Below are positions 4,902-24,953 of a stretch of DNA of 64,000 nucleotides, piece after piece (the first letter of the stretch is position 1; each line of letters starts with the position of its first letter). The position numbers were made by a program, and so were the translations under genes. This DNA is from a virus. Its lineage: Duplodnaviria; Caudoviricetes. The notes under the pieces are model-generated. The model did no database searches and had not been told where the DNA came from. It saw only the letters and a program-made list of their open reading frames with translations. The stretch lies in IMG/VR virus record IMGVR_UViG_3300020577_006613, positions 36,329-100,328 of that record; one strand, 5' to 3'.

Positions 4902-5192
4902 ATGGACACACAAGACTTTGCTCGTTTTATGCTTCGCCCTATTGAGTGGGCCAAAACTCAGTACGCAGAGGCTTTTTGCCTCTTCGGTTTGATGGTTTTT
5001 ATCGGCGTACTGTGGGGAACAATGTTCCTGGCTTTCGGTCTGCCGATTGTCTTTTGGATTCTTGCTGGTATAGGCTTTGTTGGACTGATTTTGTTCCTCG
5101 TAACTCTTGTTCTCTTCGCTATGGAAGAGAAGCGAAAGGAACGAGAAGTTCTTGAACGCAGAAAGAAGAACGATGCATCTAAGCGAACTTGA
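4902..5192 (+). CDS. membrane protein
   Basis: ATG 4902 (MDTQDF); long hydrophobic core. Confidence 0.65.
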   Translation: MDTQDFARFMLRPIEWAKTQYAEAFCLFGLMVFIGVLWGTMFLAFGLPIVFWILAGIGFVGLILFLVTLVLFAMEEKRKEREVLERRKKNDASKRT

Positions 5193-6636
5193 ACAGGTAA
5201 GAAAGGCGCGTCTCGATAAGATTCGAGAGCTTAATGTTGATCCGTATGGATGCGCCATTCAGGGTGTTGAAAAGATCGCAAGCCTTGTGGACAATTTTAG
5301 AGTTGGCGAGCCTCTTGCTCCCAATCCTGAAAGCCTTTTCTATTCAACTCCTCGCAGAGCGCAGGGTCGCATTGTTCTCCGCAGAGACAATGGTGGCCTA
5401 ATCTGGTTCAAGATCAGAGATGACTCTGGCGAGATTCAGGTTGCTTTTAGCAAGAAGTCTGCAAGCGAACCAGAAAACTTTGCTCTTGCAAAGCTTACCG
5501 ATCTTGGCGATATCATCGCCGTTGACGGCCCTATTCGCCGTACTCAAACCGGCGAAATCACTATTTGGGCAAGCAGGATTTATCTTGCATGCAAGAGCCT
5601 TACGCATCCTCCCGATAAGGTAGAAGGATTGCAAGATGTAGAGATTAGGTATCGCCAACGATACCTTGATATGGCCTTTAACAGCGACTTTACTCGCCGT
5701 TTGCAGGACAGATCAAGAATCATTTCTCTCTTGCGCAAGGCCTTTGAGAGCCGCAGATACATTGAAGTTGAAACTCCCATGCTGCACCCCATTGCTGGTG
5801 GTGCAGCGGCGCGGCCATTTGCAACGCATCTCAATGCTCTTGATATCCCATTGTTTATGAGAATCGCTCCTGAACTCTATCTCAAGAGATTGATTGTCGG
5901 CGGCATGTCAAGGGTTTTCGAGATCAACCGTAACTTCAGAAATGAAGGCGTTGACGCAACGCATAATCCTGAGTTTACTGCGCTCGAAGCCTACGGAATC
6001 AACGAGACTGCTCAAAGCCTTATGATGATGGTTGAGGAAATCATTAAGGAAGTTGTTTTCTCCATTGACAATACTCCTCATGACCACCAGGGTATTTTCA
6101 AGTTCGGAGAGCATCTGGTTGATTTCAACCAGCCTTTTAGAGTTGTTTCTTTCAAGGAACTCTTCCAAAGAGGCGTTAGCAGAGACATTCTCCAAGAAAC
6201 TGACTTTATCAAGGCTAATAAGCTTTTCGAAGAGTTTTGTGAGCCTTTGATTGATCCGAATGTTCCAACATTCGTTTATGGCTATCCATCAGCCATTTCG
6301 CCTTTGACAAAGACGATTGCAGGAGCGGAAGTTCTTTCTCAGCGAGCAGACCTTTTCATTGGCGGCATGGAAATCGGAACCATCTATACGGAACAGAACG
6401 ATCCGCAGGTTCAGTTTGATGTCTTCAATCAACAGCTTTCTGATGACGAAGAATCAACTCATCGCACAATGGATACCGACTTTGTTGAAGCGTTGAAGGT
6501 TGGTATGCCTCCAACTGGCGGGTTGGGTATCGGGGTTGACCGACTTGTTATGCTTTTGACTGGACAGACCAGCGTAAGAGATGTCATTGCCTTCCCGTTC
6601 ATGCGACCGCTTGAAGTTCCGCAAAATCAAGGCTAA
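5173..6636 (+). CDS. lysS: lysyl-tRNA synthetase, class II
   Basis: OB anticodon domain, YRQRYLD, GGAAARPF, RIAPELYLKRL, FRNEG, HNPEFT, GMPPTGGLGIGVDRL. Confidence 0.97.
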   Translation: MHLSELEQVRKARLDKIRELNVDPYGCAIQGVEKIASLVDNFRVGEPLAPNPESLFYSTPRRAQGRIVLRRDNGGLIWFKIRDDSGEIQVAFSKKSASEPENFALAKLTDLGDIIAVDGPIRRTQTGEITIWASRIYLACKSLTHPPDKVEGLQDVEIRYRQRYLDMAFNSDFTRRLQDRSRIISLLRKAFESRRYIEVETPMLHPIAGGAAARPFATHLNALDIPLFMRIAPELYLKRLIVGGMSRVFEINRNFRNEGVDATHNPEFTALEAYGINETAQSLMMMVEEIIKEVVFSIDNTPHDHQGIFKFGEHLVDFNQPFRVVSFKELFQRGVSRDILQETDFIKANKLFEEFCEPLIDPNVPTFVYGYPSAISPLTKTIAGAEVLSQRADLFIGGMEIGTIYTEQNDPQVQFDVFNQQLSDDEESTHRTMDTDFVEALKVGMPPTGGLGIGVDRLVMLLTGQTSVRDVIAFPFMRPLEVPQNQG

Positions 6637-6686
6637 ACTCGCTGTCCTTAGACAAGGCTAGACTTTCCGAAAGAAAGAAGAGAGTA

Positions 6687-7697
6687 ATGAGCAGCACTAT
6701 TGTTTCAACTCGCAGAATTGATCAGGTTTCTTCGCACCCTAATGCTGAGAAGCTTGAACTTGCCATCGTTGGTGGGTGGCAGTGCTGCGTACAAAAGGGT
6801 AAGTACAAGTCTGGTGACTTGATTACCTACATCCCGCCCGATTCGGTTCTTCCTGTTGCCTTGTCTGACTCTCTCGGAGTCACTAAGTTTCTAAGCAACG
6901 GTCGTATCATCCCTATCCGTCTGCGCAATGAAGCGTCTTTCGGGTTGGTTATCGATCCCGTTGGCAACGAAGGCGACAACGTTGCTGATCAGCTTGGTAT
7001 TACCAAGTATCAACCTCCTGTTGACCCGAACGACAAGGAAGCAGAGGCAAGCAACCCCTTCTTTACTACTTATACCGACATTGAGAATCTTCGCAACTTC
7101 ACTGATGTCTTTCAGGATGGAGAAGAAGTTGTAGTTACCGAGAAGATTCATGGCAAGAACTCTCGTCTTGGGTACATTCTCAATGATGATGGAGTCTGGC
7201 AGCGACTTGCTGGTGGTCGTACTGTTCAGAGAAAGAACACTCCGGGATCTGCGCATTGGTATCCCTGGTCTTTGCCTCAGATGAACCTTCTTGCTGGGGC
7301 TATTCTTGCCGATCCAAAGGTTGCTCGCCAGATTGTTATGTTTGGCGAAATCTTTGGCAATCAGAAGAAAATGAAGTACGGTCTTCCTGGCGTACTTGGT
7401 TATCGCATGTTTGATCTGTTTACTGATGGTTCCTACTGGAACTACGATAACATGCATGACCTTGCGACTCAGTGCGGAGTTGAAACCGTTCCCGTTCTTT
7501 ACCGTGGTCCATACTCTTTGGCTAAGATCGTTGAGCTTAGCAAAGGCAAGTCAACTATTCCTGGCGCTGATCATATTCGTGAAGGCGTGGTTGTTCGTCC
7601 AGTTGTTGAACGATTGAATCCCAAGGTTGGTCGGGTTATTTTGAAGTACGTTTCCGACGACTATCTTTGCGGCGACTTCGACGCTTCTGGCGAGTAA
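6687..7697 (+). CDS. ATP-dependent RNA ligase with N-terminal tRNA-binding OB fold (DRB0094-type)
   Basis: HPNAEKLE N-domain; motif I TEKIHG; FGEIFG; FD; REGVVV; ILKYVS. Confidence 0.9.
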   Translation: MSSTIVSTRRIDQVSSHPNAEKLELAIVGGWQCCVQKGKYKSGDLITYIPPDSVLPVALSDSLGVTKFLSNGRIIPIRLRNEASFGLVIDPVGNEGDNVADQLGITKYQPPVDPNDKEAEASNPFFTTYTDIENLRNFTDVFQDGEEVVVTEKIHGKNSRLGYILNDDGVWQRLAGGRTVQRKNTPGSAHWYPWSLPQMNLLAGAILADPKVARQIVMFGEIFGNQKKMKYGLPGVLGYRMFDLFTDGSYWNYDNMHDLATQCGVETVPVLYRGPYSLAKIVELSKGKSTIPGADHIREGVVVRPVVERLNPKVGRVILKYVSDDYLCGDFDASGE

Positions 7698-14820: not shown

Positions 14821-15281
14821 TTACTGGTTCTAATCCATTCAAAGTTGTCAAAACTGGTTGGCATAAGTGGTTCTGTGAAGGACCATACCAGAGCGGTAAG
14901 CAGTGGGACACAGAAGACGAAGCGCTTGAAGAAGCCGCTTTACTCAATTCGGTCTACAACATTGGATATTTTGCTAACGTAGATCAGGCAAGGCTTGCTC
15001 GGCTTGAGGACAACGCTGCGCATGCTTACAGATGCGCTCAAGAATATGTTCCTGACTATCCTTGGCCTGATAAGCCTGATATGTCATGTCAGGCTTCTAC
15101 TGCTGTTTGGGCTTGCGGAGAATCATACAAGGGGGTCTCTGCTGCCTGCCAGGATTGGCAAGACCTGTTTGAACACCTTGCGCCAGAAGCCTACAAAGCA
15201 CTTTTTGAGAGGATAAAGGCTGACACCAAAGCCTATGATGCTCTGCTTCAAGAGATCAAGGATAAAAAGGCAAAGGGATGA
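14817..15281 (+). CDS. hypothetical protein
   Basis: ATGA-coupled on both sides. Confidence 0.7.
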   Translation: MITGSNPFKVVKTGWHKWFCEGPYQSGKQWDTEDEALEEAALLNSVYNIGYFANVDQARLARLEDNAAHAYRCAQEYVPDYPWPDKPDMSCQASTAVWACGESYKGVSAACQDWQDLFEHLAPEAYKALFERIKADTKAYDALLQEIKDKKAKG

Positions 15282-16273
15282 TCAAACGAGGACTCTGCTG
15301 CATTCATATGGGCCTTCAAGCGAGAGGCATTCGCTTTCAAACAATGACTTGGAAGCAGTTTTCTTCGCGCCCAAGAAAAGAATCTATCGAGATACTTGCC
15401 AAGCGGTATGAGAACAACCTGCAAGTTATCCATTCAATCCTTCGTCTATGCGCTGTTCCTGATTGGAACTACAGAGTAAGCAGTGACATCTTTCCTCTTA
15501 TGACTCATCCTGAGTCTAAGATTGTTTGGGATGAACTGCCCAACGTCGAAACTCTTAATCAGCTTTTCAGAATCTGCGCAGAAGAGGCCTTTTTCAATAG
15601 CACTCGCCTCTCTTGCCATCCTGACCAATTCAATGTTCTTGCAAGCGAGAACGATAAGGCTGTTGAGCAAACCATCACAGAGTTGAACCATCATGGCTGG
15701 TTCATGAGTAAGCTTGGCCTTGATCCTTCTACTTGCCAAGACCCTATTCTTAGGAAACTTCTTGGCGACACTAAGGGACTGCATAATCTTGGCTACGTTG
15801 CCCCTATAAACATCCATCTGAATTGCTCGAAGGGCGACCCCAAAGATATCACCAAGCGGTTTAAGGCCAATCTAGACCGCCTAAACGACAATGCCAAGAA
15901 GCGTCTTGTTGTTGAGGTTGAGGATAAGGGTATTTGGACCGCCAAAATGCTTGTTGATCATATTCATGAAGCTACAGGCGTTCCTGTAACTTTTGATTAT
16001 CTGCATCACAAGTGCAATCCAGGCGGGTTGACGGAAGAAGAGGCCTTCAAACTTTGCGCTGAGACTTGGGGTAGCGCAACTCCATTGTTCCATTTTGCTG
16101 AAACGTTACCAGGCCAAAACAACCCCAGAAAGCATGCTGACTTTCCTACTTTCGTACCTAATGACTACGGGTACAATATCGACCTGGATTACGAGTTCAA
16201 AATGAAGGACCAAGCGCTTCAAAAAGCACAAAAACTTGAAGAAGAACTTGAAAGCAAATCGGTAGGTGTCTAA
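15278..16273 (+). CDS. uvsE: UV damage endonuclease
   Basis: YRVSSDIFP, RLSCHPDQFNVL, EL.HH, INIH, FDYLHH, RKHAD, EFKMKD. Confidence 0.93.
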   Translation: MIKRGLCCIHMGLQARGIRFQTMTWKQFSSRPRKESIEILAKRYENNLQVIHSILRLCAVPDWNYRVSSDIFPLMTHPESKIVWDELPNVETLNQLFRICAEEAFFNSTRLSCHPDQFNVLASENDKAVEQTITELNHHGWFMSKLGLDPSTCQDPILRKLLGDTKGLHNLGYVAPINIHLNCSKGDPKDITKRFKANLDRLNDNAKKRLVVEVEDKGIWTAKMLVDHIHEATGVPVTFDYLHHKCNPGGLTEEEAFKLCAETWGSATPLFHFAETLPGQNNPRKHADFPTFVPNDYGYNIDLDYEFKMKDQALQKAQKLEEELESKSVGV

Positions 16274-16365
16274 GATTTTGCGTGGAGGCATTCAAGTTTT
16301 TTCCGATGGATGCCGATACAGTTTGTACTGAAGAACGCCTACCAAAGAACTTCTCAGTAAAATAG

Positions 16366-16482
16366 TAGATGTCGGAACTGGTCGAAGGACAGGACGGTTA
16401 ACTTTACCGCTCGCCGTAAGGCGATTTCAAAGTGCAGCCGCAAGGCAACCCGTTCGCCATAACATACCTTTTCCGCTTCTTT
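16366..16482 (+). ncRNA. Y RNA-like ncRNA A (Ro-binding stem plus 3-way junction with two GNRA hairpins)
   Basis: GGT-CGAA-GG / CC-ATAACAT-ACC; TCGCC-GTAA-GGCGA; GCC-GCAA-GGC; upstream of Ro60. Confidence 0.7.
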
Positions 16483-16520
16483 TGACCTGGCAACAGCTTA
16501 GCAGCTATTCGTCAAGGTTT

Positions 16521-16588
16521 GGTCATCGAGTCGAAGAATGAAGGTTAACGGCTAAAAAAGCCTTTGTTCACCAACATATTCGATGCCA
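16521..16588 (+). ncRNA. Y RNA-like ncRNA B (minimal)
   Basis: CATCGAGT-CGAA-GAATGAAGG / CCTTTGTTC-ACCAACAT-ATTCGATG. Confidence 0.7.
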
Positions 16589-16649
16589 TTTTGTAGCCTC
16601 TCGGTTCTTGAAGGAAACTTCAGGTCAACCGTATTGAAAACTGAATAAT

Positions 16650-16771
16650 GCGTCTGTAGTGTAATGGTAGCACACTAAAACATCCTGACCACTAACTTAC
16701 CGAACAGGTCGACCGGAAAGGGTTATCTCTATTACCAAGAGGTAGTTTGGGTTCGAATCCCAACGGGCGCT
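16650..16771 (+). ncRNA. tRNA-like Y RNA C (YrlA-type, permuted Ro module inserted in tRNA-Gly-like cloverleaf)
   Basis: GCGTCTG/CGGGCGC-T acceptor, D arm GTGT-AATGGTA-GCAC, T arm TTGGG-TTCGAAT-CCCAA, ~50-nt insert CC-ACTAACTT-ACC-GAACA-GGT-CGACC-GG. Confidence 0.8.
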
Positions 16772-16777
16772 TTGAAA

Positions 16778-17338
16778 ATGTTGATTGAATCGCTCATACC
16801 GATGCAGAACACTCTGCGAGAAGCGGAGCAGCTACCTGAAATGGTAGATTTTGTTCGCAGCGGCGGAGTCTTTACTGCTGAAACTCTTTCAGTCTTTGCG
16901 ACAAAGAAGAGAGAAAATGCAGTTAGTCTCTTTAAGCTCAACCCCATAAAGGTTGTCAGGTTTGAAGACGGAGCGATGTACCTTCACGATGGCCTTCATC
17001 GTACAACAGCTATATGGATGGCTGGAAGAAGGGTCTTGGATTCGAGAGAGTTTGTGTTAGAAGGTTGGGAGTATAAGGATTACCTGGAAATCAATCTTGA
17101 TCAAAAATGGTATACGCCATTTGATCCGAGAAAAGAAGTTCGCATCAATGACTTCCTCTCGTATAAGAGATTGGTGGAAGAGTTCATAACCAAGGAACCG
17201 AAGCCGACAAATGAAGAAATTCGGCTTTACATACTTGACCATTATGAGGTACAGTCGTATACTGAACCTCGTTCTGTGAAATCAGTAGCAGAAGTGGCAA
17301 GTCGGCATACTATGGCAATACCTGCTGTAGTCGAATAA
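16778..17338 (+). CDS. ParB/Srx-like N-terminal domain protein
   Basis: PIKV..FEDG.MYLHDGLHR..A motif. Confidence 0.55.
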   Translation: MLIESLIPMQNTLREAEQLPEMVDFVRSGGVFTAETLSVFATKKRENAVSLFKLNPIKVVRFEDGAMYLHDGLHRTTAIWMAGRRVLDSREFVLEGWEYKDYLEINLDQKWYTPFDPRKEVRINDFLSYKRLVEEFITKEPKPTNEEIRLYILDHYEVQSYTEPRSVKSVAEVASRHTMAIPAVVE

Positions 17339-17349
17339 GGAGTTGGGAA

Positions 17350-19047
17350 ATGGCAAATTACGGTAAGCACGCAGCGTCCATCAGCAAGAAGACCCCAAAG
17401 GCTACGCCTCAGACTGTGCAGACCCCTGGTACTGTGCAGAACAACGCAGGCGGCTATGTCTATGAGATTGATAAGTGGGAGCGCCTTGATCGTTTCCTGA
17501 TCTTGGGTACGGATGGCGCAACCTACTACTGCTCAGAGCGCAAGATGTCGCTCGATAACTCCAAGAACGTCCTTGAGTGCATCAAGGAGGACGGTATTCG
17601 TACCGTTAACCGCATCGTTGAGATCAGCGATGATGGTCGCGCTCCAAAGAATGATCCTGCTCTCTTTGCGCTTGCGCTCTGCGCTTCGCATGGTGATGAT
17701 GACACTCGTAAGCTCGCGCTGAACCTTCTCCCGAAGGTTGCTCGTATCGGTACTCACTTGTTCCAGTTCTCGCACTTCATTGACGGTCAGCGTGGTTGGG
17801 GTTCCGGCCTCCGCAACGCTATCGCCAACTGGTACAACGGAATGAAGCCTGAGCGCCTTGCTCTTCAGGTTGTTAAGTATCCGCAGCGTACTGCTGAGGA
17901 GGGTAACGCGAAGTCTTCCTGGTCGCACGATGACTTGCTCCGCAAGTCTCACGTTCGAGGCGATGAGCTTCACAACCTGATCTATCAGTACGTCACGAAG
18001 GAGGGTAAGCTTCCTGACCGTGTTCCTGAGCCTCTTGCTATCCTTGAGGGCGCAAGCCGCATGAAGTCTGCAAAGACTGAGGGCGATGTTGTTTCCTTGA
18101 TCGAGAAGTATGAGCTTCCGCATGAGCTTGTTCCGAAGGAGTTCGGCAACAGCGAAGCCGTATGGCGCGCTCTCCTGCCGCACATGCCTATCACGGCAAC
18201 TATGCGCACGTTGAACCGTCTTACGTCTTACGGCGTCCTCAAGCCGCTTTCGAGCGATTTGAAGATGGTTGTTGAGCGTTTGACCAACGTTGAGAATATC
18301 AAGAAGGGCCGCGTTCACCCGCTGGCAGTTCTCGGTGCGCTCAAGACGTACTCCAACGGTCGTGGTGTCAAGGGTAGTTTGACCTGGTCTCCTTTGTCGC
18401 AGATTACTGATGCACTTGACGATATGCTCTACCTCGCGTTCGATAACATCGAGCCGACTGGTAAGAACATCTTGATCGGTCTTGACGTTTCTGGTTCTAT
18501 GGAGAGCGGAAACATTGGTGGTCTTGACTTCGTTACGCCTCGCGAGGCATCTGCTGTCATGGCGATGGTTACGGCGCGTAGCGAGAAGAACTACCATATC
18601 ATCGGATTCACTGCCGGTGGCTGGACCGCAAGTGGTCAGCACTCTCGTTCAAGTTGGGGTGGCGGTGGCTACGGAGTTACCGACATTCACATCAGCCCTC
18701 GCGAGCGTCTGGATGCTGTCTGCAAGAAGATCGGCGCTCTCCCGATGGGAGGTACGGACTGTGCATTGCCTGTTCTCTACGCAATGGAGAAGGGTCTGCA
18801 TGTTGACGCCTTCATTACCTACACCGACAACGAGACCTGGGCAGGCGCTATCAAGCCGCATGAGGCTCTGGTACAGTACCGTAATCAGCGCAACGCTCAG
18901 GCGAAGCTGATTGCAGTTGGTATGACTGCAACCGAGTACAGCATTGCTGACTCGAACGATGCTGGTTCCATGAACTTCGTTGGGTTCGATTCGTCGGCTC
19001 CGGCGCTCATGGCAGACTTCATTCGTAAGCCGCTTCGCTCTCGCTAA
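17350..19047 (+). CDS. rsr: Ro60/Rsr (TROVE + vWA) RNA-binding protein
   Basis: QNNAGGYV, RFLILGTDG.TYY, ARIGTHLFQF, GRVHP, vWA LDVSGSM, GGTDCALP, TDNETW, GFDS. Confidence 0.96.
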   Translation: MANYGKHAASISKKTPKATPQTVQTPGTVQNNAGGYVYEIDKWERLDRFLILGTDGATYYCSERKMSLDNSKNVLECIKEDGIRTVNRIVEISDDGRAPKNDPALFALALCASHGDDDTRKLALNLLPKVARIGTHLFQFSHFIDGQRGWGSGLRNAIANWYNGMKPERLALQVVKYPQRTAEEGNAKSSWSHDDLLRKSHVRGDELHNLIYQYVTKEGKLPDRVPEPLAILEGASRMKSAKTEGDVVSLIEKYELPHELVPKEFGNSEAVWRALLPHMPITATMRTLNRLTSYGVLKPLSSDLKMVVERLTNVENIKKGRVHPLAVLGALKTYSNGRGVKGSLTWSPLSQITDALDDMLYLAFDNIEPTGKNILIGLDVSGSMESGNIGGLDFVTPREASAVMAMVTARSEKNYHIIGFTAGGWTASGQHSRSSWGGGGYGVTDIHISPRERLDAVCKKIGALPMGGTDCALPVLYAMEKGLHVDAFITYTDNETWAGAIKPHEALVQYRNQRNAQAKLIAVGMTATEYSIADSNDAGSMNFVGFDSSAPALMADFIRKPLRSR

Positions 19048-19074: not shown

Positions 19075-19106
19075 AGCCCCTTCGGTGTTCTACCGAGGGG
19101 GCTTTT
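19075..19106 (+). terminator. intrinsic terminator after rsr
   Basis: AGCCCCTTCGGT-GTTCT-ACCGAGGGGGCT-TTT. Confidence 0.8.
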
Positions 19107-22261: not shown

Positions 22262-22948
22262 ATGAAAAAGCAATTAATCGCAAATTCAACAGTTCTTGAG
22301 ATTAGAGAAGCCAATAAAAAGCTTCTTGATATGGGCAAAACAACTCATGCTGCCCGTTATCGAGAACTGTCTAGGCGTTTCAATCTAAGCGAATGGTCTA
22401 TTCGCTGGATCTGTCAAGGCAGAGAGTATATTGGCGCAGGCGGCTTTATTGAAAGATTCGACCACGAAGGCGGCTTCAATAGAGCCATTTCAGATGCCGA
22501 AGCCCTTGCTGTCAAGCTTGAGTTTAGCAAAAACGCAACTGTTATTGACCTCGCCAATAAGTACAAGGTTTCTCCGGTTACGATTCAGAGAATTTTACTT
22601 GGCAAGACTTACAGAAACGTTGGCGGTCCTTTGGCCTTCAGAAGTTCTATTAAGAAGAGAATGGGCAACAAGTCCTCTCTCGTAGCCAGCACTCTTGCTA
22701 AACCGACAACGGTTATAGCCCCCAGAGTTATTTCTCATCCGCCACAGACAACGCCTATTAAGTCTGTATCTTCAACGCCTAATCTTTCCACTATAGATGT
22801 CTTTCTTATCAGAACTGGTTACTCTTTTGGCGCTTCGATTGAAGCTCTTCAGATTCAGTTCCGTCTTAGCAGGCAAACGGTAGTCGAAATCATCAACGGC
22901 AAAATGTTTCCCAACCTTCCTGGCCCCAAAGAAACGACACTTGTATGA
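22262..22948 (+). CDS. multi-HTH DNA-binding protein
   Basis: Three repeats of LA..Y/F.VS..TI..I..GK.Y. Confidence 0.65.
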   Translation: MKKQLIANSTVLEIREANKKLLDMGKTTHAARYRELSRRFNLSEWSIRWICQGREYIGAGGFIERFDHEGGFNRAISDAEALAVKLEFSKNATVIDLANKYKVSPVTIQRILLGKTYRNVGGPLAFRSSIKKRMGNKSSLVASTLAKPTTVIAPRVISHPPQTTPIKSVSSTPNLSTIDVFLIRTGYSFGASIEALQIQFRLSRQTVVEIINGKMFPNLPGPKETTLV

Positions 22949-23577
22949 GTCCTGAACAAATTCTTCGTAAAGCGGCTTTCATGATTAGAAGTGCAGACCC
23001 TTCTATCACCATACAAGAAGCCGAGGCAAGAGTAAGAAACTACACAGGCTTTCCATCATCGTCCAAAGACAGGGATGATTCATACAAAAGACTGTCGTGG
23101 GATGATTACTTCATGTCTTTGGCTTTTCTTGTAGCCATGCGTTCGCCTGACGCTCAAACTCAGCACGGATGCGTCATTGTTGATCAAAACAACAAGGTTA
23201 TTTCGACTGGCTACAATGGATGGTTGCAGGGGTCTTCTGATGAAGACATGCCCAACATTAGGCCTAAGAAGTATTTGCATGTTATCCACTCAGAAGTCAA
23301 TGCTGTTTTGTCGGCTCAGCAAAACCTTGTTGGTTGTAGAGTTTATGTAACTGGTCCGCCTTGTAATGAGTGCCTTAAGACGATGGCTCGCGTTGGAATC
23401 AAGGAAATCATCATAGGCGATAGGCCTCATGTTTTTTCTGAGGGATACCTTGAACTTCAGTCGTTCATTTGCGCATCTCAAGATATCAAGATTCGTAAGT
23501 TTACTGGAACTCTTGCGTCTTTGGATGGCAGAACCATATCAAAGGAAAGCCATGAGAGTTTACAAAGAACGAAATAA
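22945..23577 (+). CDS. dCMP deaminase
   Basis: WDDYFM.LA....RSPD, GYNG, HSEVNA, PCNEC. Confidence 0.92.
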   Translation: MSPEQILRKAAFMIRSADPSITIQEAEARVRNYTGFPSSSKDRDDSYKRLSWDDYFMSLAFLVAMRSPDAQTQHGCVIVDQNNKVISTGYNGWLQGSSDEDMPNIRPKKYLHVIHSEVNAVLSAQQNLVGCRVYVTGPPCNECLKTMARVGIKEIIIGDRPHVFSEGYLELQSFICASQDIKIRKFTGTLASLDGRTISKESHESLQRTK

Positions 23578-23968
23578 CCTCGAAGAAATAGACGCTCTTA
23601 TCCATGAACGGATTTATGGACTAACTACCTATAAACAGGACGCAAGCGTTCGAGACTGGCAGGGGTTGATCCCTAAATACTCTTCAGATTTTTCACTTGC
23701 AATGTCAGTCGCTGAGAAAGTCGGCCTTTTCGACACTATAATGCTGGCGAAGGACCGAGAGAACTGGATCACGCTTGAAGCCTCAGTAAGTAGTTTGAAC
23801 GAAACCCAGTCTCAGAAGTTCTATTCTTCAGGTCTTGATATCAAGGCCAAAGCTTTCTCTTCTGGCTTTACCGCTGCTGAAGCAGTTGCAAGAGCCTGTT
23901 TGGTTCTGAAGGTAAAAGAAAATGAGCAATCCAGCAGGTCCGATCAACAGAGTCTTGGAGTCCTTTAG
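23552..23968 (+). CDS. phage ABA-sandwich-like protein
   Basis: PKYSSDFSLAM.VAEK...AEAVARACL. Confidence 0.6.
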   Translation: MRVYKERNNLEEIDALIHERIYGLTTYKQDASVRDWQGLIPKYSSDFSLAMSVAEKVGLFDTIMLAKDRENWITLEASVSSLNETQSQKFYSSGLDIKAKAFSSGFTAAEAVARACLVLKVKENEQSSRSDQQSLGVL

Positions 23969-24953
23969 AAGACTTGTTCCAGAAGACAAATCTGCTGTTA
24001 TCGCATGCTCAGGCGGGGCCGATTCAATGGCCCTGCTTTTTTGCGCGCAAAAGACTGGACGAACCCTTATTGCTGCTCATGTTCTTCACGACATGAGGCC
24101 TTACGATGAAGCATCAAAAGACAGGGATCTGGTTCAGTCATACTGCGAAAGTAACGCCATTCATTTCGTTGACAAGGTTGCAAAGCTAAGGTTTGGCGAA
24201 AAAATCCCAACAGAAGAAGCATACGGATACGAAAGACAAAGACTCTTATGGGGAGTGGCTGATGAGTACAACGGATATGTTGTAACCGCTCATCACGCAG
24301 ATGACCAGCTTGAAACAATGCTCATGAAGCTCTGTAGAGGTTCAGGTCTTCGTGGACTGTCGGGCATTTCAGAGACACACAACCACAACGACAACATTAC
24401 TGTTCGACCAATGCTCTCAATCTCCAAGGATGATGTATACGAGATTTGCAGACAGAACAATGTTCCGTTCAATGAAGATCAAACCAACAAAGATACCAAG
24501 TACACTCGAAACGCTATTCGACACAATGTGATTCCTGCTTTGAAGGCTCTGTTTCCTCATTGTTCAGAAAAGGCAAACGACGCTGCTGCTATCTTTTCAC
24601 AGGCGCAGGAACTTGCAAACGAAAGCCTCTACGATCTCAAGTTGCACCAGAAGACTAACATTGTTTATGATCCCGACTGGGGAGGTGGCGGTACTTGCGT
24701 AAGCCTTCCTATTGAGGCTTTGCAACTTGCCAACAACATTACTATCTATGAGTGGCTTAGAAGTTCTGTTGTCTATCTTGCAGGAGGTTTTGAATACGTT
24801 GCTCATGACAGCGTAAACAAGGAAATGGTTGACAAAGTAATCTTGGCTATTAGAAACAGGTCTAAGAGAACCTTTGATTGGCCTCTCAATATCAAAGTTA
24901 GCGTTTCCAAGACTGAAGTAACAGTGATGATTGTTAAGAAGATTCTGCCATGA
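23922..24953 (+). CDS. tilS: tRNA(Ile)-lysidine synthetase
   Basis: SGGADSMAL, TAHHADDQLET.LM.L.RGSGL.GL, RPML, RNAIRH. Confidence 0.93.
   Translation: MSNPAGPINRVLESFRRLVPEDKSAVIACSGGADSMALLFCAQKTGRTLIAAHVLHDMRPYDEASKDRDLVQSYCESNAIHFVDKVAKLRFGEKIPTEEAYGYERQRLLWGVADEYNGYVVTAHHADDQLETMLMKLCRGSGLRGLSGISETHNHNDNITVRPMLSISKDDVYEICRQNNVPFNEDQTNKDTKYTRNAIRHNVIPALKALFPHCSEKANDAAAIFSQAQELANESLYDLKLHQKTNIVYDPDWGGGGTCVSLPIEALQLANNITIYEWLRSSVVYLAGGFEYVAHDSVNKEMVDKVILAIRNRSKRTFDWPLNIKVSVSKTEVTVMIVKKILP

What the first reader, a model, noticed from the sequence alone, without database searches (positions are those of the whole stretch)
16366..16771. Array of three Y-RNA-like genes: one shared Ro-binding module, three different effector domains
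Seen: the 500-nt ORF-free gap upstream of Ro60 has three elements with the same asymmetric internal loop closed by different but pairing stems. A: GGT-CGAA-GG / CC-ATAACAT-ACC. B: GAGT-CGAA-GAATGAAGG / CCTTTGTTC-ACCAACAT-ATTC. C (strands in reverse order): CC-ACTAACTT-ACC-loop-GGT-CGACC-GG. All three continue to GGTTA. A carries a junction with two GNRA hairpins, B only a short A-rich loop, and C a tRNA body. Spacer hairpins lie at ~16482-16515 and ~16602-16631. Established: bacterial Y RNAs lie next to rsr, carry a GNCGAA(N)G Ro-binding motif and tether Ro to effector proteins. Inference: a phage Ro60 with an interchangeable adaptor-RNA set, probably one precursor cut by tRNA-processing enzymes. 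A and B would be missed by tRNA-like YrlA models. This is my best candidate for an undescribed system.
Basis: partly seen in the sequence, partly recalled or inferred. Interest (0 to 1): 0.9.

Follow-up and report, generated by a model that had tools for sequence, protein, structure and literature searches.

The report
Three Y RNAs beside phage Ro60
A giant phage carries, just upstream of its Ro60 gene, three small RNA genes that share the Ro60-docking helix of Y RNAs; this kind of array is already known, but one of the three has true tRNA ends, a widespread layout that I could not find described.

Summary
Between a UvdE-like gene and a ParB-like ORF that precedes Ro60, the window has three elements on the Ro60 strand. 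Each has the same asymmetric loop (C-GA-A/C opposite AAC-A/U-U) between two helices, followed by GGUUA(A/U)C.

All three are conserved in related giant-phage contigs and show compensatory base changes:
- A: 8 of 17 pairs.
- B: 14 of 21 pairs.
- C's tRNA frame: 13 of 16 pairs.

The combined motif occurs nowhere else in the 64 kb.

They are Y RNAs. Arrays of two to five Y RNAs beside rsr, made from one precursor, are already published, including for phages. "Undescribed system" is therefore overstated.

The less ordinary part is C. It is a circular permutation of YrlA: a complete tRNA frame in which a capped Ro-binding helix replaces the anticodon arm. With a model built here I found 91 such RNAs at 63 Ro60 loci (25 viral or metagenomic, 38 bacterial). 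They have near-perfect covariation and R15:Y48 co-variation. Rfam's YrlA model misses them, and I found no paper describing this layout.

This scan had already met the same class on other DNA (e1-5466571, e1-5486589). Expression, Ro60 binding and partner proteins remain untested.

The parts
16248..16276 (+). Putative sigma70-type promoter of the array (-35 TTGAAA, 17-nt spacer, -10 TAAGAT), overlapping the end of the UvdE-like gene
   Evidence: Consensus scan, 9 of 12 matches. The same position holds TTGACT-17/18-TATAAT in L071 and L006, and TTGCTA-17-TAAGAT in L005. Its function is inferred.
16285..16352 (+). Conserved leader block with no consensus structure (ATTCAAGTT ... GCCGATAnAG ... ACGCCTACCAA)
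   Evidence: Many columns are invariant across win/L004/L005/L006 (A3) and the block is also present in L071. RNAalifold predicts no pairs. ACGCCTACCAA occurs only here in the window as an exact match. Its role is unknown.
16373..16475 (+). Y RNA A: the termini pair, followed by the Ro-binding bulged helix (GGU-CGAA-GG / CC-AUAACAU-ACC), a GGACGG/CCGUUC stem, GGUUAAC, and a junction with two GNRA hairpins
   Evidence: The MFE fold shows this architecture. In a 5-genome alignment, 8 of 17 consensus pairs have compensatory changes. The GCC-GNRA-GGC hairpin is conserved in four genomes and is a UUCG hairpin in L071.
16484..16519 (+). Spacer hairpin 1, between A and B
   Evidence: MFE -10.6 kcal/mol, z -1.36. 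A hairpin sits at the same place in 5 genomes but the consensus is weak, at -3.5 kcal/mol.
16524..16585 (+). Y RNA B: a long hairpin with an 8-bp terminal stem, CGAA opposite ACCAACAU, a 9-11-bp second stem, GGUUAAC and an A-rich apical loop
   Evidence: Fold z-score -3.1. 14 of 21 pairs are compensatory in 5 genomes. Model R2 scores 87.5 bits here and has no other hit in the window. All 30 of its hits across 710 kb lie on the Ro60 strand.
16602..16631 (+). Spacer hairpin 2, between B and C
   Evidence: MFE -13.3 kcal/mol, z -1.68. In relatives, an extra Y RNA (B2) occupies this interval.
16634..16649 (+). Conserved 16-mer TTGAMAAYTGAATAAY that abuts the 5' end of C
   Evidence: Present in win/L004/L005/L006/L040. 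It is not repeated elsewhere in the window. Its role is unknown; it may be an RNase P leader.
16650..16771 (+). Y RNA C: a tRNA-framed (circularly permuted) YrlA. It has a 7-bp acceptor stem, D arm, S2 helix, ACUAACUU strand, ACC-GAACA-GGU capped helix, CGACC, GGUUAUC, V arm, T arm and discriminator U. No CCA is encoded.
   Evidence: Rfam tRNA model: 40.3 bits with a 66-nt insert. ARAGORN makes no call. No RF02553 hit. R1 scores 114.8 bits. In 91 homologues 91.8% of cells are paired and 28 of 29 pairs are compensatory. The 15:48 pair co-varies.
16778..17338 (+). ParB/Srx-like ORF between the array and Ro60
   Evidence: Weak Pfam ParBc_2 match, E 0.0047, below the cut-off. It is conserved directly upstream of Ro60 in L005, L006, L040, L071 and L064, and is absent in L004.
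17350..19047 (+). Ro60 (TROVE + vWA) gene
   Evidence: Pfam TROVE 2.7e-31 and vWA_Ro60 1.1e-52. Full-length match to D. radiodurans Rsr 2NVO at E 7e-108, and to Xenopus and human Ro60.
19075..19103 (+). Intrinsic-terminator-like hairpin after Ro60; the first strong one downstream of the array
   Evidence: 13-bp stem with 8 GC pairs, followed by a U tract.

Best explanation
The gap encodes three Y RNAs, the non-coding partners of the phage's own Ro60 ring protein.

Each carries the Ro60-docking module. This is a bulged helix of the type 5'-GGU-C-GA / UU(AU)-ACC-3', the bacterial counterpart of the metazoan GGUCCGA/CUUGAC site. It sits between two helices and is followed by G-UUA(U/A)C.

A and B have the classical layout, with the termini paired in the docking stem and a variable distal domain. 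C is the same RNA class as YrlA but circularly permuted. Its termini form a 7-bp tRNA acceptor stem, and the docking helix, closed by a pentaloop, stands where the anticodon arm would be.

Inferred course of events:
1. One transcript starts at a sigma70-type promoter near 16248-16276. It runs through a leader, A, B, C, the ParB-like gene and Ro60, and ends at the terminator at 19075.
2. RNase P and the tRNA 3'-end enzymes (with CCA addition) excise C. This also separates the RNAs from the mRNA.
3. A and B are trimmed back to their terminal stems and stabilised by Ro60.
4. As in Deinococcus, Salmonella and Thermus phage phiLo, the distal domains then tether Ro60 to partner proteins such as host PNPase, or gate its cavity. 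Different distal domains give differently specialised particles.

Shown here: sequence, conservation, covariation and genomic linkage to Ro60.
Not shown: expression, processing, Ro60 binding and partner identity.
For: - Ro60 identity.
- The motif is clustered and strand-specific, with 3 sites against 0.42 expected.
- The array is conserved upstream of Ro60 in five related phage contigs with 64-79% Ro60 identity. Element content varies: A+B in all five, C in four, and an extra B2 or B1 in some.
- Compensatory changes: A 8/17 pairs, B 14/21, and 13/16 pairs of C's tRNA frame in 11 sequences.
- C's class across 91 sequences from 63 Ro60 loci: acceptor, D and T stems are 99.8-100% paired, and the two docking helices 85-98%, against about 45% when the partners are slid. 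G15:C48 occurs 52 times and A15:U48 35 times, with 3 exceptions. G-UUAUC and GGC-CG / CUU-GCC are conserved.
- Every hit of the B-type model (30/30) lies on the Ro60 strand.
- Hairpin Y RNAs at related loci almost reach the Rfam nematode sbRNA family, a Y RNA homologue, at 34-37 bits against a cut-off of 38.
- Encoded CCA follows 12 of 91 tRNA-framed units, where about 1.4 would be expected.
- Published precedent: the GNCGAAN0-1G motif, at least two Y RNAs per rsr locus, a polycistronic precursor, and RNase P cleavage plus CCA addition in M. smegmatis YrlA (PMC4201824). Phage phiLo Yrl1 and Yrl2 bind phiRo60 and PNPase (PMC12135203).
- The promoter is conserved and there is no earlier strong terminator.
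Against: - There are no expression, processing or binding data. The host is unknown because this is a metagenomic viral contig, about 20% complete.
- Single-sequence fold z-scores for A and C are unremarkable, at -1.2.
- C's motif departs from GNCGAAN0-1G at one base (GUCGACCG).
- In A and B the position opposite the second A of CGAA is A rather than U, so the metazoan-type G.U/A-U continuation is not fully formed.
- The large alignment A10 was fitted to the model's structure, which favours pairing.
- The partner-protein step rests only on analogy.
- One relative (L071) lacks C and another (L004) lacks the ParB-like gene, so neither is obligatory.
Confidence: 0.8

Rival explanations
1. The three modules are cis-acting parts of the 5' leader of the ParB-like/Ro60 operon. 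In this reading they are Ro60 binding sites through which the protein autoregulates its own mRNA, as ribosomal-protein leaders do, and not stable trans-acting RNAs.
For: They lie between the conserved promoter and the coding genes, with no terminator in between. A conserved, unstructured leader block precedes them.
Against: The tRNA frame of C is a ready-made excision signal. It is kept with full covariation at 63 loci, including loci where the units lie downstream of Ro60 or inside tRNA arrays. Equivalent upstream elements in M. smegmatis and D. radiodurans are processed into stable Rsr-bound RNAs. The two roles are not mutually exclusive.
Confidence: 0.1
2. C is a decoding tRNA gene carrying an intron or insertion in its anticodon arm, and A and B are unrelated hairpins such as processing sites or terminator-like structures.
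For: The Rfam tRNA model scores C above its gathering threshold, 40.3 against 29 bits. The phage has real tRNAs, a class II aminoacyl-tRNA synthetase and a TilS-like gene nearby. Atu_ph07 has tRNAs with short inserts.
Against: There is no anticodon loop, and ARAGORN makes no call. The insert is not variable intron sequence: it carries the same conserved Y-RNA strands and G-UUAUC as A, B and 90 other units, always at Ro60 loci. The hairpin that remains is the poorly conserved V arm of YrlA, with no conserved U33 or purine 37. A and B co-vary as long bulged stems and share the same loop.
Confidence: 0.03
3. The elements are decaying relics or chance look-alikes with no present function.
For: Element content differs between relatives (C lost in L071, truncated in L040, B2 absent here).
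Against: Compensatory substitutions maintain every helix across phages whose Ro60 proteins are only 64-79% identical. The loop strands are invariant. Motif clustering far exceeds the shuffled controls.
Confidence: 0.03

Closest known systems
YrlA (Y RNA-like A; Rfam RF02553; Chen et al. 2014, PMC4201824; structure in Wang et al. 2018, bioRxiv 10.1101/312249)
   Same: Element C has every module of YrlA: the GNCGA-type 5' strand, G-UUAUC (the paper's YUAY) opening a variable V arm, a T arm with GGUUCGAAUCC, a 7-bp acceptor-type stem, a D arm, and R15:Y48 co-variation. It is encoded beside rsr on the same strand.
   Different: The topology differs. YrlA has its 5' and 3' ends in the Ro-binding stem and a loop-closed acceptor stem, so it is described as 'a circularly permuted tRNA'. 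C has its ends in the acceptor stem and a loop-closed Ro-binding helix, which restores tRNA gene order. RF02553 gives no hit at E<=10, while the tRNA model does hit. C is the one-piece equivalent of M. smegmatis YrlA after RNase P cleavage.
YrlB / Yrn2-type short hairpin Y RNAs of S. Typhimurium, M. smegmatis and D. radiodurans (PMC4201824)
   Same: A and B resemble these RNAs. The termini pair in a long stem that holds the Ro-binding motif. They are encoded in the same cluster as the tRNA-like Y RNA and probably come from the same precursor.
   Different: The published examples end in a small pyrimidine-rich loop. B ends in a conserved A-rich loop, and A ends in a three-way junction with a conserved GCC-GNRA-GGC hairpin. 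Both keep GGUUAAC, the junction sequence of YrlA.
Yrl1 and Yrl2 of Thermus phage phiLo with phiRo60 (PMC12135203)
   Same: A phage-encoded Ro60 with several CGAA-motif stem-bulge-stem RNAs directly upstream. For phiLo, binding to the phage Ro60 and complexes with host PNPase were shown experimentally.
   Different: phiLo has two RNAs and neither is reported to have a tRNA frame. Here there are three, one of them tRNA-framed, in a giant phage of an unknown host, and nothing has been tested experimentally.
Metazoan Y RNAs and nematode sbRNAs (Ro60-binding bulged helix GGUCCGA / CUUGAC)
   Same: The docking site has the same logic: a short G-C-rich helix, a bulged C, then G.U and A-U pairs. The consensus of 91 units is GGC-CG(R)A opposite CUU-GCC. 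Hairpin Y RNAs at related loci score 34-37 bits on RF01656.
   Different: The window's own A and B do not reach any Rfam Y or sbRNA model. Metazoan Y RNAs have no tRNA-like module.

Membership tests
Bacterial/phage Y RNA (Ro60-associated ncRNA) | Encoded within about 4 kb of the Ro60/rsr gene, on the same strand | tested here: met
   A, B and C lie 580-980 nt upstream of Ro60 on the + strand. The same holds for all homologous units found.
Bacterial/phage Y RNA (Ro60-associated ncRNA) | GNCGAAN0-1G motif on the 5' strand of the Ro-binding stem | tested here: met
   A has GUCGAAG and B has GUCGAAG. C has GUCGACCG, one mismatch, while its orthologues have GUCGAACG or GUCGAAUG.
Bacterial/phage Y RNA (Ro60-associated ncRNA) | [quoted passage not shown] | tested here: met
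   Met for A and B by covariation. Not met for C, whose ends pair in the acceptor stem.
Bacterial/phage Y RNA (Ro60-associated ncRNA) | Physically bound by Ro60 and accumulates as a discrete RNA | not testable with these tools
   No transcriptome or binding data are available for this metagenomic phage.
YrlA (Rfam RF02553) | tRNA-like domain with D and T arms and tRNA tertiary pairs | tested here: met
   For C, the D and T stems are 100% paired across 91 homologues. G15:C48 occurs 52 times, A15:U48 35 times, other combinations 3 times.
YrlA (Rfam RF02553) | Termini in the Ro-binding stem; acceptor-like stem closed by a loop | tested here: not met
   C is arranged the other way round: an open 7-bp acceptor stem and a Ro helix capped by GAACA.
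YrlA (Rfam RF02553) | Score at or above the curated gathering threshold (69 bits) | tested here: not met
   No RF02553 match at E<=10 in 16200-16900. As a control, canonical units in L009 and L010 score 42 bits. tRNA-framed units in bacteria are also missed.
tRNA (Rfam RF00005) | Acceptor, D and T arms of the cloverleaf | tested here: met
   40.3 bits against a gathering score of 29.
tRNA (Rfam RF00005) | Anticodon stem with a 7-nt anticodon loop | tested here: not met
   A 66-nt insert carrying the Ro module takes its place. ARAGORN does not call a tRNA.

The most novel reading that the evidence does not exclude
Element C would belong to a large, so far undescribed topological class of Y RNA, the 'tRNA-framed YrlA'. 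Here it was found at 63 Ro60 loci of phages and of Myxococcota, Chloroflexota, Armatimonadota, Verrucomicrobiota and Desulfonema. In this reading the class is transcribed within tRNA-type operons, matured by RNase P and the 3'-end enzymes, and CCA-tailed like a real tRNA. It therefore presents Ro60 on a genuine tRNA body. In this phage it would work alongside two non-tRNA adaptors (A, B), so that one Ro60 ring could be programmed for different partners during infection.
Probability: 0.4. Interest if true: 0.7.

Novelty: new variant of a known kind. Interest (0 to 1): 0.55.

Why it matters
Ro60/Y RNA particles are conserved from bacteria to humans, yet their partner RNAs in most bacteria and phages are unannotated.

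This locus gives a compact three-RNA set for one phage Ro60. It also shows that the tRNA-mimicking Y RNA exists in a second gene order, with real tRNA ends. Three consequences follow:

- **Missed annotations.** The published YrlA model fails at many Ro60 loci because those RNAs score as odd tRNAs instead.
- **Origin.** The finding bears on whether YrlA arose from a tRNA gene.
- **A testable idea.** It makes testable Wang et al.'s (2018) suggestion that some YrlA RNAs may come to resemble canonical tRNAs. RNase P cleavage, CCA addition and perhaps aminoacylation of a Ro60-bound RNA can all be assayed.

For phage biology, it adds to the evidence that giant phages bring their own RNA-surveillance particle together with tRNA, synthetase and RNA-ligase genes.

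Tried and rejected
- **Rfam on the gap at E<=10.** Only the tRNA model hits. There was no YrlA, Y RNA or sbRNA match, so family membership could not be settled by Rfam.
- **Whole-gap fold.** The MFE structure mixes the elements and has z -1.4, so it was uninformative. The elements had to be folded separately and by alignment.
- **Cultured phages.** There is no DNA relative of the array. Atu_ph07 has Ro60 but no recognisable Y RNA beside it, and its long R1 hits are insert-bearing tRNAs, not Y RNAs. Actinophage loci give only partial canonical YrlA hits at 36-41 bits.
- **Low-scoring R1 hits (24-52 bits).** In L009, L015, L018, L021 and L025 these turned out to be chimeric readings across two neighbouring canonical YrlA units, not tRNA-framed RNAs. 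I therefore counted only hits with E<=1e-10, and checked 55 hits by eye for acceptor pairing and a loop-capped Ro helix.
- **The 16-mer upstream of C and the ACGCCTACCAA block as repeated phage promoters.** Neither recurs in the window.
- **The leader block as a fourth structured RNA.** RNAalifold predicts no pairs.
- **PHROGs for the neighbouring ORFs.** No hits.
- **Reviews that might mention the permuted form.** Sim et al. 2020, Boccitto & Wolin 2019 and Burroughs & Aravind 2016 are not in the held library. 'Not described' therefore rests on the searchable papers only.

Full report
**Where the window comes from.** The window is part of a 100,328-bp IMG/VR viral contig judged about 20% complete. 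Its closest relatives are 370-506-kb contigs, so this is a giant phage of unknown host.

**Genes around the finding, all on the + strand.**
- A UvdE-like gene at 15278-16273.
- A 498-nt stretch with no ORF of 40 aa or more inside 16292-16731.
- A 188-aa ORF with a weak ParB-like match.
- Ro60 at 17350-19047, with TROVE plus Ro60-type vWA domains and E 7e-108 to D. radiodurans Rsr.
- Within 12 kb upstream: two tRNA-Arg genes, a class II aminoacyl-tRNA synthetase, an RNA ligase and NAMPT.
- Downstream: a TilS-like PP-loop protein and a deaminase.

**The observation.**
- A (16373-16475) and B (16524-16585) pair their ends. They carry GGU/AGU-CGAA on the 5' strand opposite (A/C)(U/C)AACAU on the 3' strand, then a second helix and GGUUAAC.
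- C (16650-16770) is hit by the Rfam tRNA model at 40.3 bits, with a 66-nt insert where the anticodon arm should be. ARAGORN does not call it.
- Inside that insert the same two strands occur in the opposite order and are joined by the pentaloop GAACA. GGUUAUC follows.
- The composite pattern TCGA-N6-16-GGTTAWC has three distinct sites in the 64 kb. All are here and on the + strand, against 0.42 expected from shuffles.
- The spacer hairpins exist (16484-16519 and 16602-16631) but are weak on their own and only loosely conserved.

**Conservation in the phage's own clade.** The Ro60 protein found five related phage lineages with the upstream region intact.

| Locus | Ro60 identity | Elements present |
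|---|---|---|
| L004 | 79% | A, a long B1, B, C |
| L005 | 71% | A, B, B2, C |
| L006 | 67% | A, B, about 300 nt of other sequence, B2, C |
| L071 | 64% | A and B only |
| L040 | 76% over the N terminus | B, B2 and a C whose 3' half is replaced where an HNH-type ORF is inserted |

Consensus folding supports all three elements:
- A: 17 pairs, 8 with changes on both sides.
- B: 21 pairs, 14 compensatory.
- C: in an 11-sequence set, all 16 pairs of the acceptor, D and T stems, 13 of them compensatory.

The loop strands, GGUUAAC, and the GCC-GNRA-GGC hairpin of A are invariant or nearly so. The GUAA hairpin of A lies in a 12-nt insertion peculiar to this phage.

**What they are.** Chen et al. 2014 (PMC4201824) established several points:
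- Bacterial and phage Y RNAs lie within a few kb of rsr on the same strand.
- They share GNCGAAN0-1G.
- There are two or more per locus.
- In M. smegmatis and D. radiodurans they are cut from one precursor, which can include a tRNA.
- One of them, YrlA, mimics tRNA.

A and B fit the short-hairpin type and C fits YrlA module for module. Thermus phage phiLo has two CGAA-motif Y RNAs upstream of its Ro60. They bind that protein and also host PNPase (PMC12135203). An array of Y RNAs beside a phage Ro60 is therefore a new member of a known kind, not an undescribed system.

**The unusual part.** Published YrlA has its ends in the Ro-binding stem and a closed acceptor stem. Wang et al. 2018 (bioRxiv 10.1101/312249) call it a circularly permuted tRNA, and speculate that some YrlAs might be processed to look more like tRNAs. 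C is the reverse permutation, with tRNA gene order restored. RF02553 gives no match here even at E<=10, although it recognises canonical units in L009 and L010 at 42 bits.

I built a covariance model (R1) from 11 tRNA-framed units and searched three sets of Ro60 loci:
- the loci already fetched, including the 35 metagenomic loci;
- 74 further viral loci;
- 80 loci from bacterial genomes.

At E<=1e-10 this yields 91 units at 63 loci: 25 viral or metagenomic and 38 bacterial. The bacterial loci include cultured Polyangium strains and the complete genome of Desulfonema magnum. Every unit is on the Ro60 strand, and there are up to four per locus.

I inspected the sequences of 55 of the hits. Nearly all have a 7-bp acceptor stem (35 of the 40 inspected at E<=1e-10 at 7/7), and the Ro helix is capped by a short loop, often GNRA or UUCG. 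Lower-scoring hits in tandem arrays of canonical YrlAs are chimeric readings and were discarded.

Measures on the 91-row alignment:
- 91.8% of cells are paired, against 40-51% with slid partners.
- 28 of 29 pairs show compensatory change.
- The acceptor, D and T stems are 99.8-100% paired, and the two helices flanking the Ro loop 85-98%.
- Position 15 against 48 reads G:C 52 times, A:U 35 times and otherwise 3 times. This is the tertiary Levitt pair, so these RNAs fold as tRNA-like L shapes.
- The consensus docking site is GGC-CG(R)A opposite CUU-GCC, and G-UUAUC is more than 95% conserved. This matches the metazoan GGUCCGA/CUUGAC bulged helix.
- Encoded CCA follows the discriminator in 12 of 91 units.

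One caveat: the alignment was fitted to the model's structure, which favours pairing. The independent MAFFT alignment of 11 sequences gave the same result for the tRNA frame.

The Rfam tRNA model scores the six bacterial and phage units that I looked up at 40-52 bits, and the YrlA model misses them. I found no paper describing this topology, but three reviews could not be read. Earlier follow-ups in this scan reached the same class on other DNA (e1-5466571, e1-5486589).

**The B type is general too.** A model of B (R2) gave 30 hits at E<=0.01 in 710 kb searched on both strands. All 30 are on the Ro60 strand, 24 lie outside the training set, and they fall in about 17 other loci. Hairpin Y RNAs at two related loci nearly reach the Rfam nematode sbRNA family.

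**How it probably works.**
- A sigma70-like promoter sits at the same place in all five phages. It is a perfect TTGACT-17-TATAAT in L071 and TTGAAA-17-TAAGAT here at 16248-16276.
- The first strong intrinsic terminator follows Ro60, at 19075-19103.
- I therefore infer one transcript: leader, A, B, C, ParB-like gene, Ro60.
- Excision of C as a tRNA would also free the upstream RNAs from the mRNA.
- Binding to Ro60 through the shared helix, and tethering of partners through the distal domains, follow from the Deinococcus, Salmonella and phiLo work. Neither is shown here.

**Left unexplained.**
- A conserved, unstructured leader block at 16285-16352.
- A conserved 16-mer that abuts C's 5' end.
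- The ParB-like ORF, kept between the array and Ro60 in six related loci (five distinct contigs) but absent in L004.

**Verdict.** The array is an ordinary, if rich, Y RNA locus. Its tRNA-framed member belongs to a widespread variant of YrlA that is not in Rfam's YrlA family and, as far as I could search, is not in print.

Noticed in passing
window 16285-16352: A non-coding block upstream of element A is nearly invariant in five related phages (ATTCAAGTT, GCCGATAnAG, ACGCCTACCAA) but has no consensus secondary structure. It may be a leader or a protein-binding site of the Y RNA/Ro60 operon.
   Followed up: partly
window 16634-16649: The conserved 16-mer TTGAMAAYTGAATAAY lies directly against the 5' end of the tRNA-framed RNA in five phages and is not repeated elsewhere in the window. 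It may be an RNase P leader or another processing signal.
   Followed up: partly
L040:2730-3430: In a relative, the T arm and 3' acceptor strand of element C are missing, and an ORF with an HNH-type motif sits between the remnant and the ParB-like gene. This looks like a homing-endonuclease insertion into the Y RNA gene, reminiscent of the tRNA-Arg cassette noted elsewhere in this window.
   Followed up: no
window 16778-17338; L005, L006, L040, L071, L064: A ParB/Srx-like ORF is kept directly upstream of Ro60 in six related giant-phage loci (five distinct contigs; Ro60 identity down to 51%). It is absent from L004 and from the bacterial loci. It may be a clade-specific partner of the particle.
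   Followed up: partly
L010/L030/L032/L036:1-3900: A phage-like contig carries a bacterial-type RNase P RNA (252.7 bits) and more than 20 tRNA genes immediately upstream of a Y RNA array and Ro60.
   Followed up: no
L187, L141 (Polyangium and Polyangiaceae genomes): Ro60 in these bacteria sits in the middle of dense arrays of dozens of tRNA genes, and the tRNA-framed Y RNAs are interspersed among them.
   Followed up: no
Agrobacterium phage Atu_ph07 NC_042013.1: 335109-335213(-) and 323906-324023(-): Two tRNA genes carry inserts of about 33-45 nt in or next to the anticodon loop. The Ro60 gene of this phage has no recognisable Y RNA next to it.
   Followed up: no
L024:2657-2818 and L117:2848-2912: Hairpin RNAs beside Ro60 score 34-37 bits on Rfam RF01656 (nematode stem-bulge RNA, a Y RNA homologue), just under its 38-bit cut-off.
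   Followed up: no
window 5107-7697 and 22945-24953: The same phage region encodes a class II aminoacyl-tRNA synthetase, an RNA ligase, a cytidine/adenosine-type deaminase and a TilS-like PP-loop protein. The Ro60 locus therefore sits among tRNA-metabolism and RNA-repair genes.
   Followed up: partly
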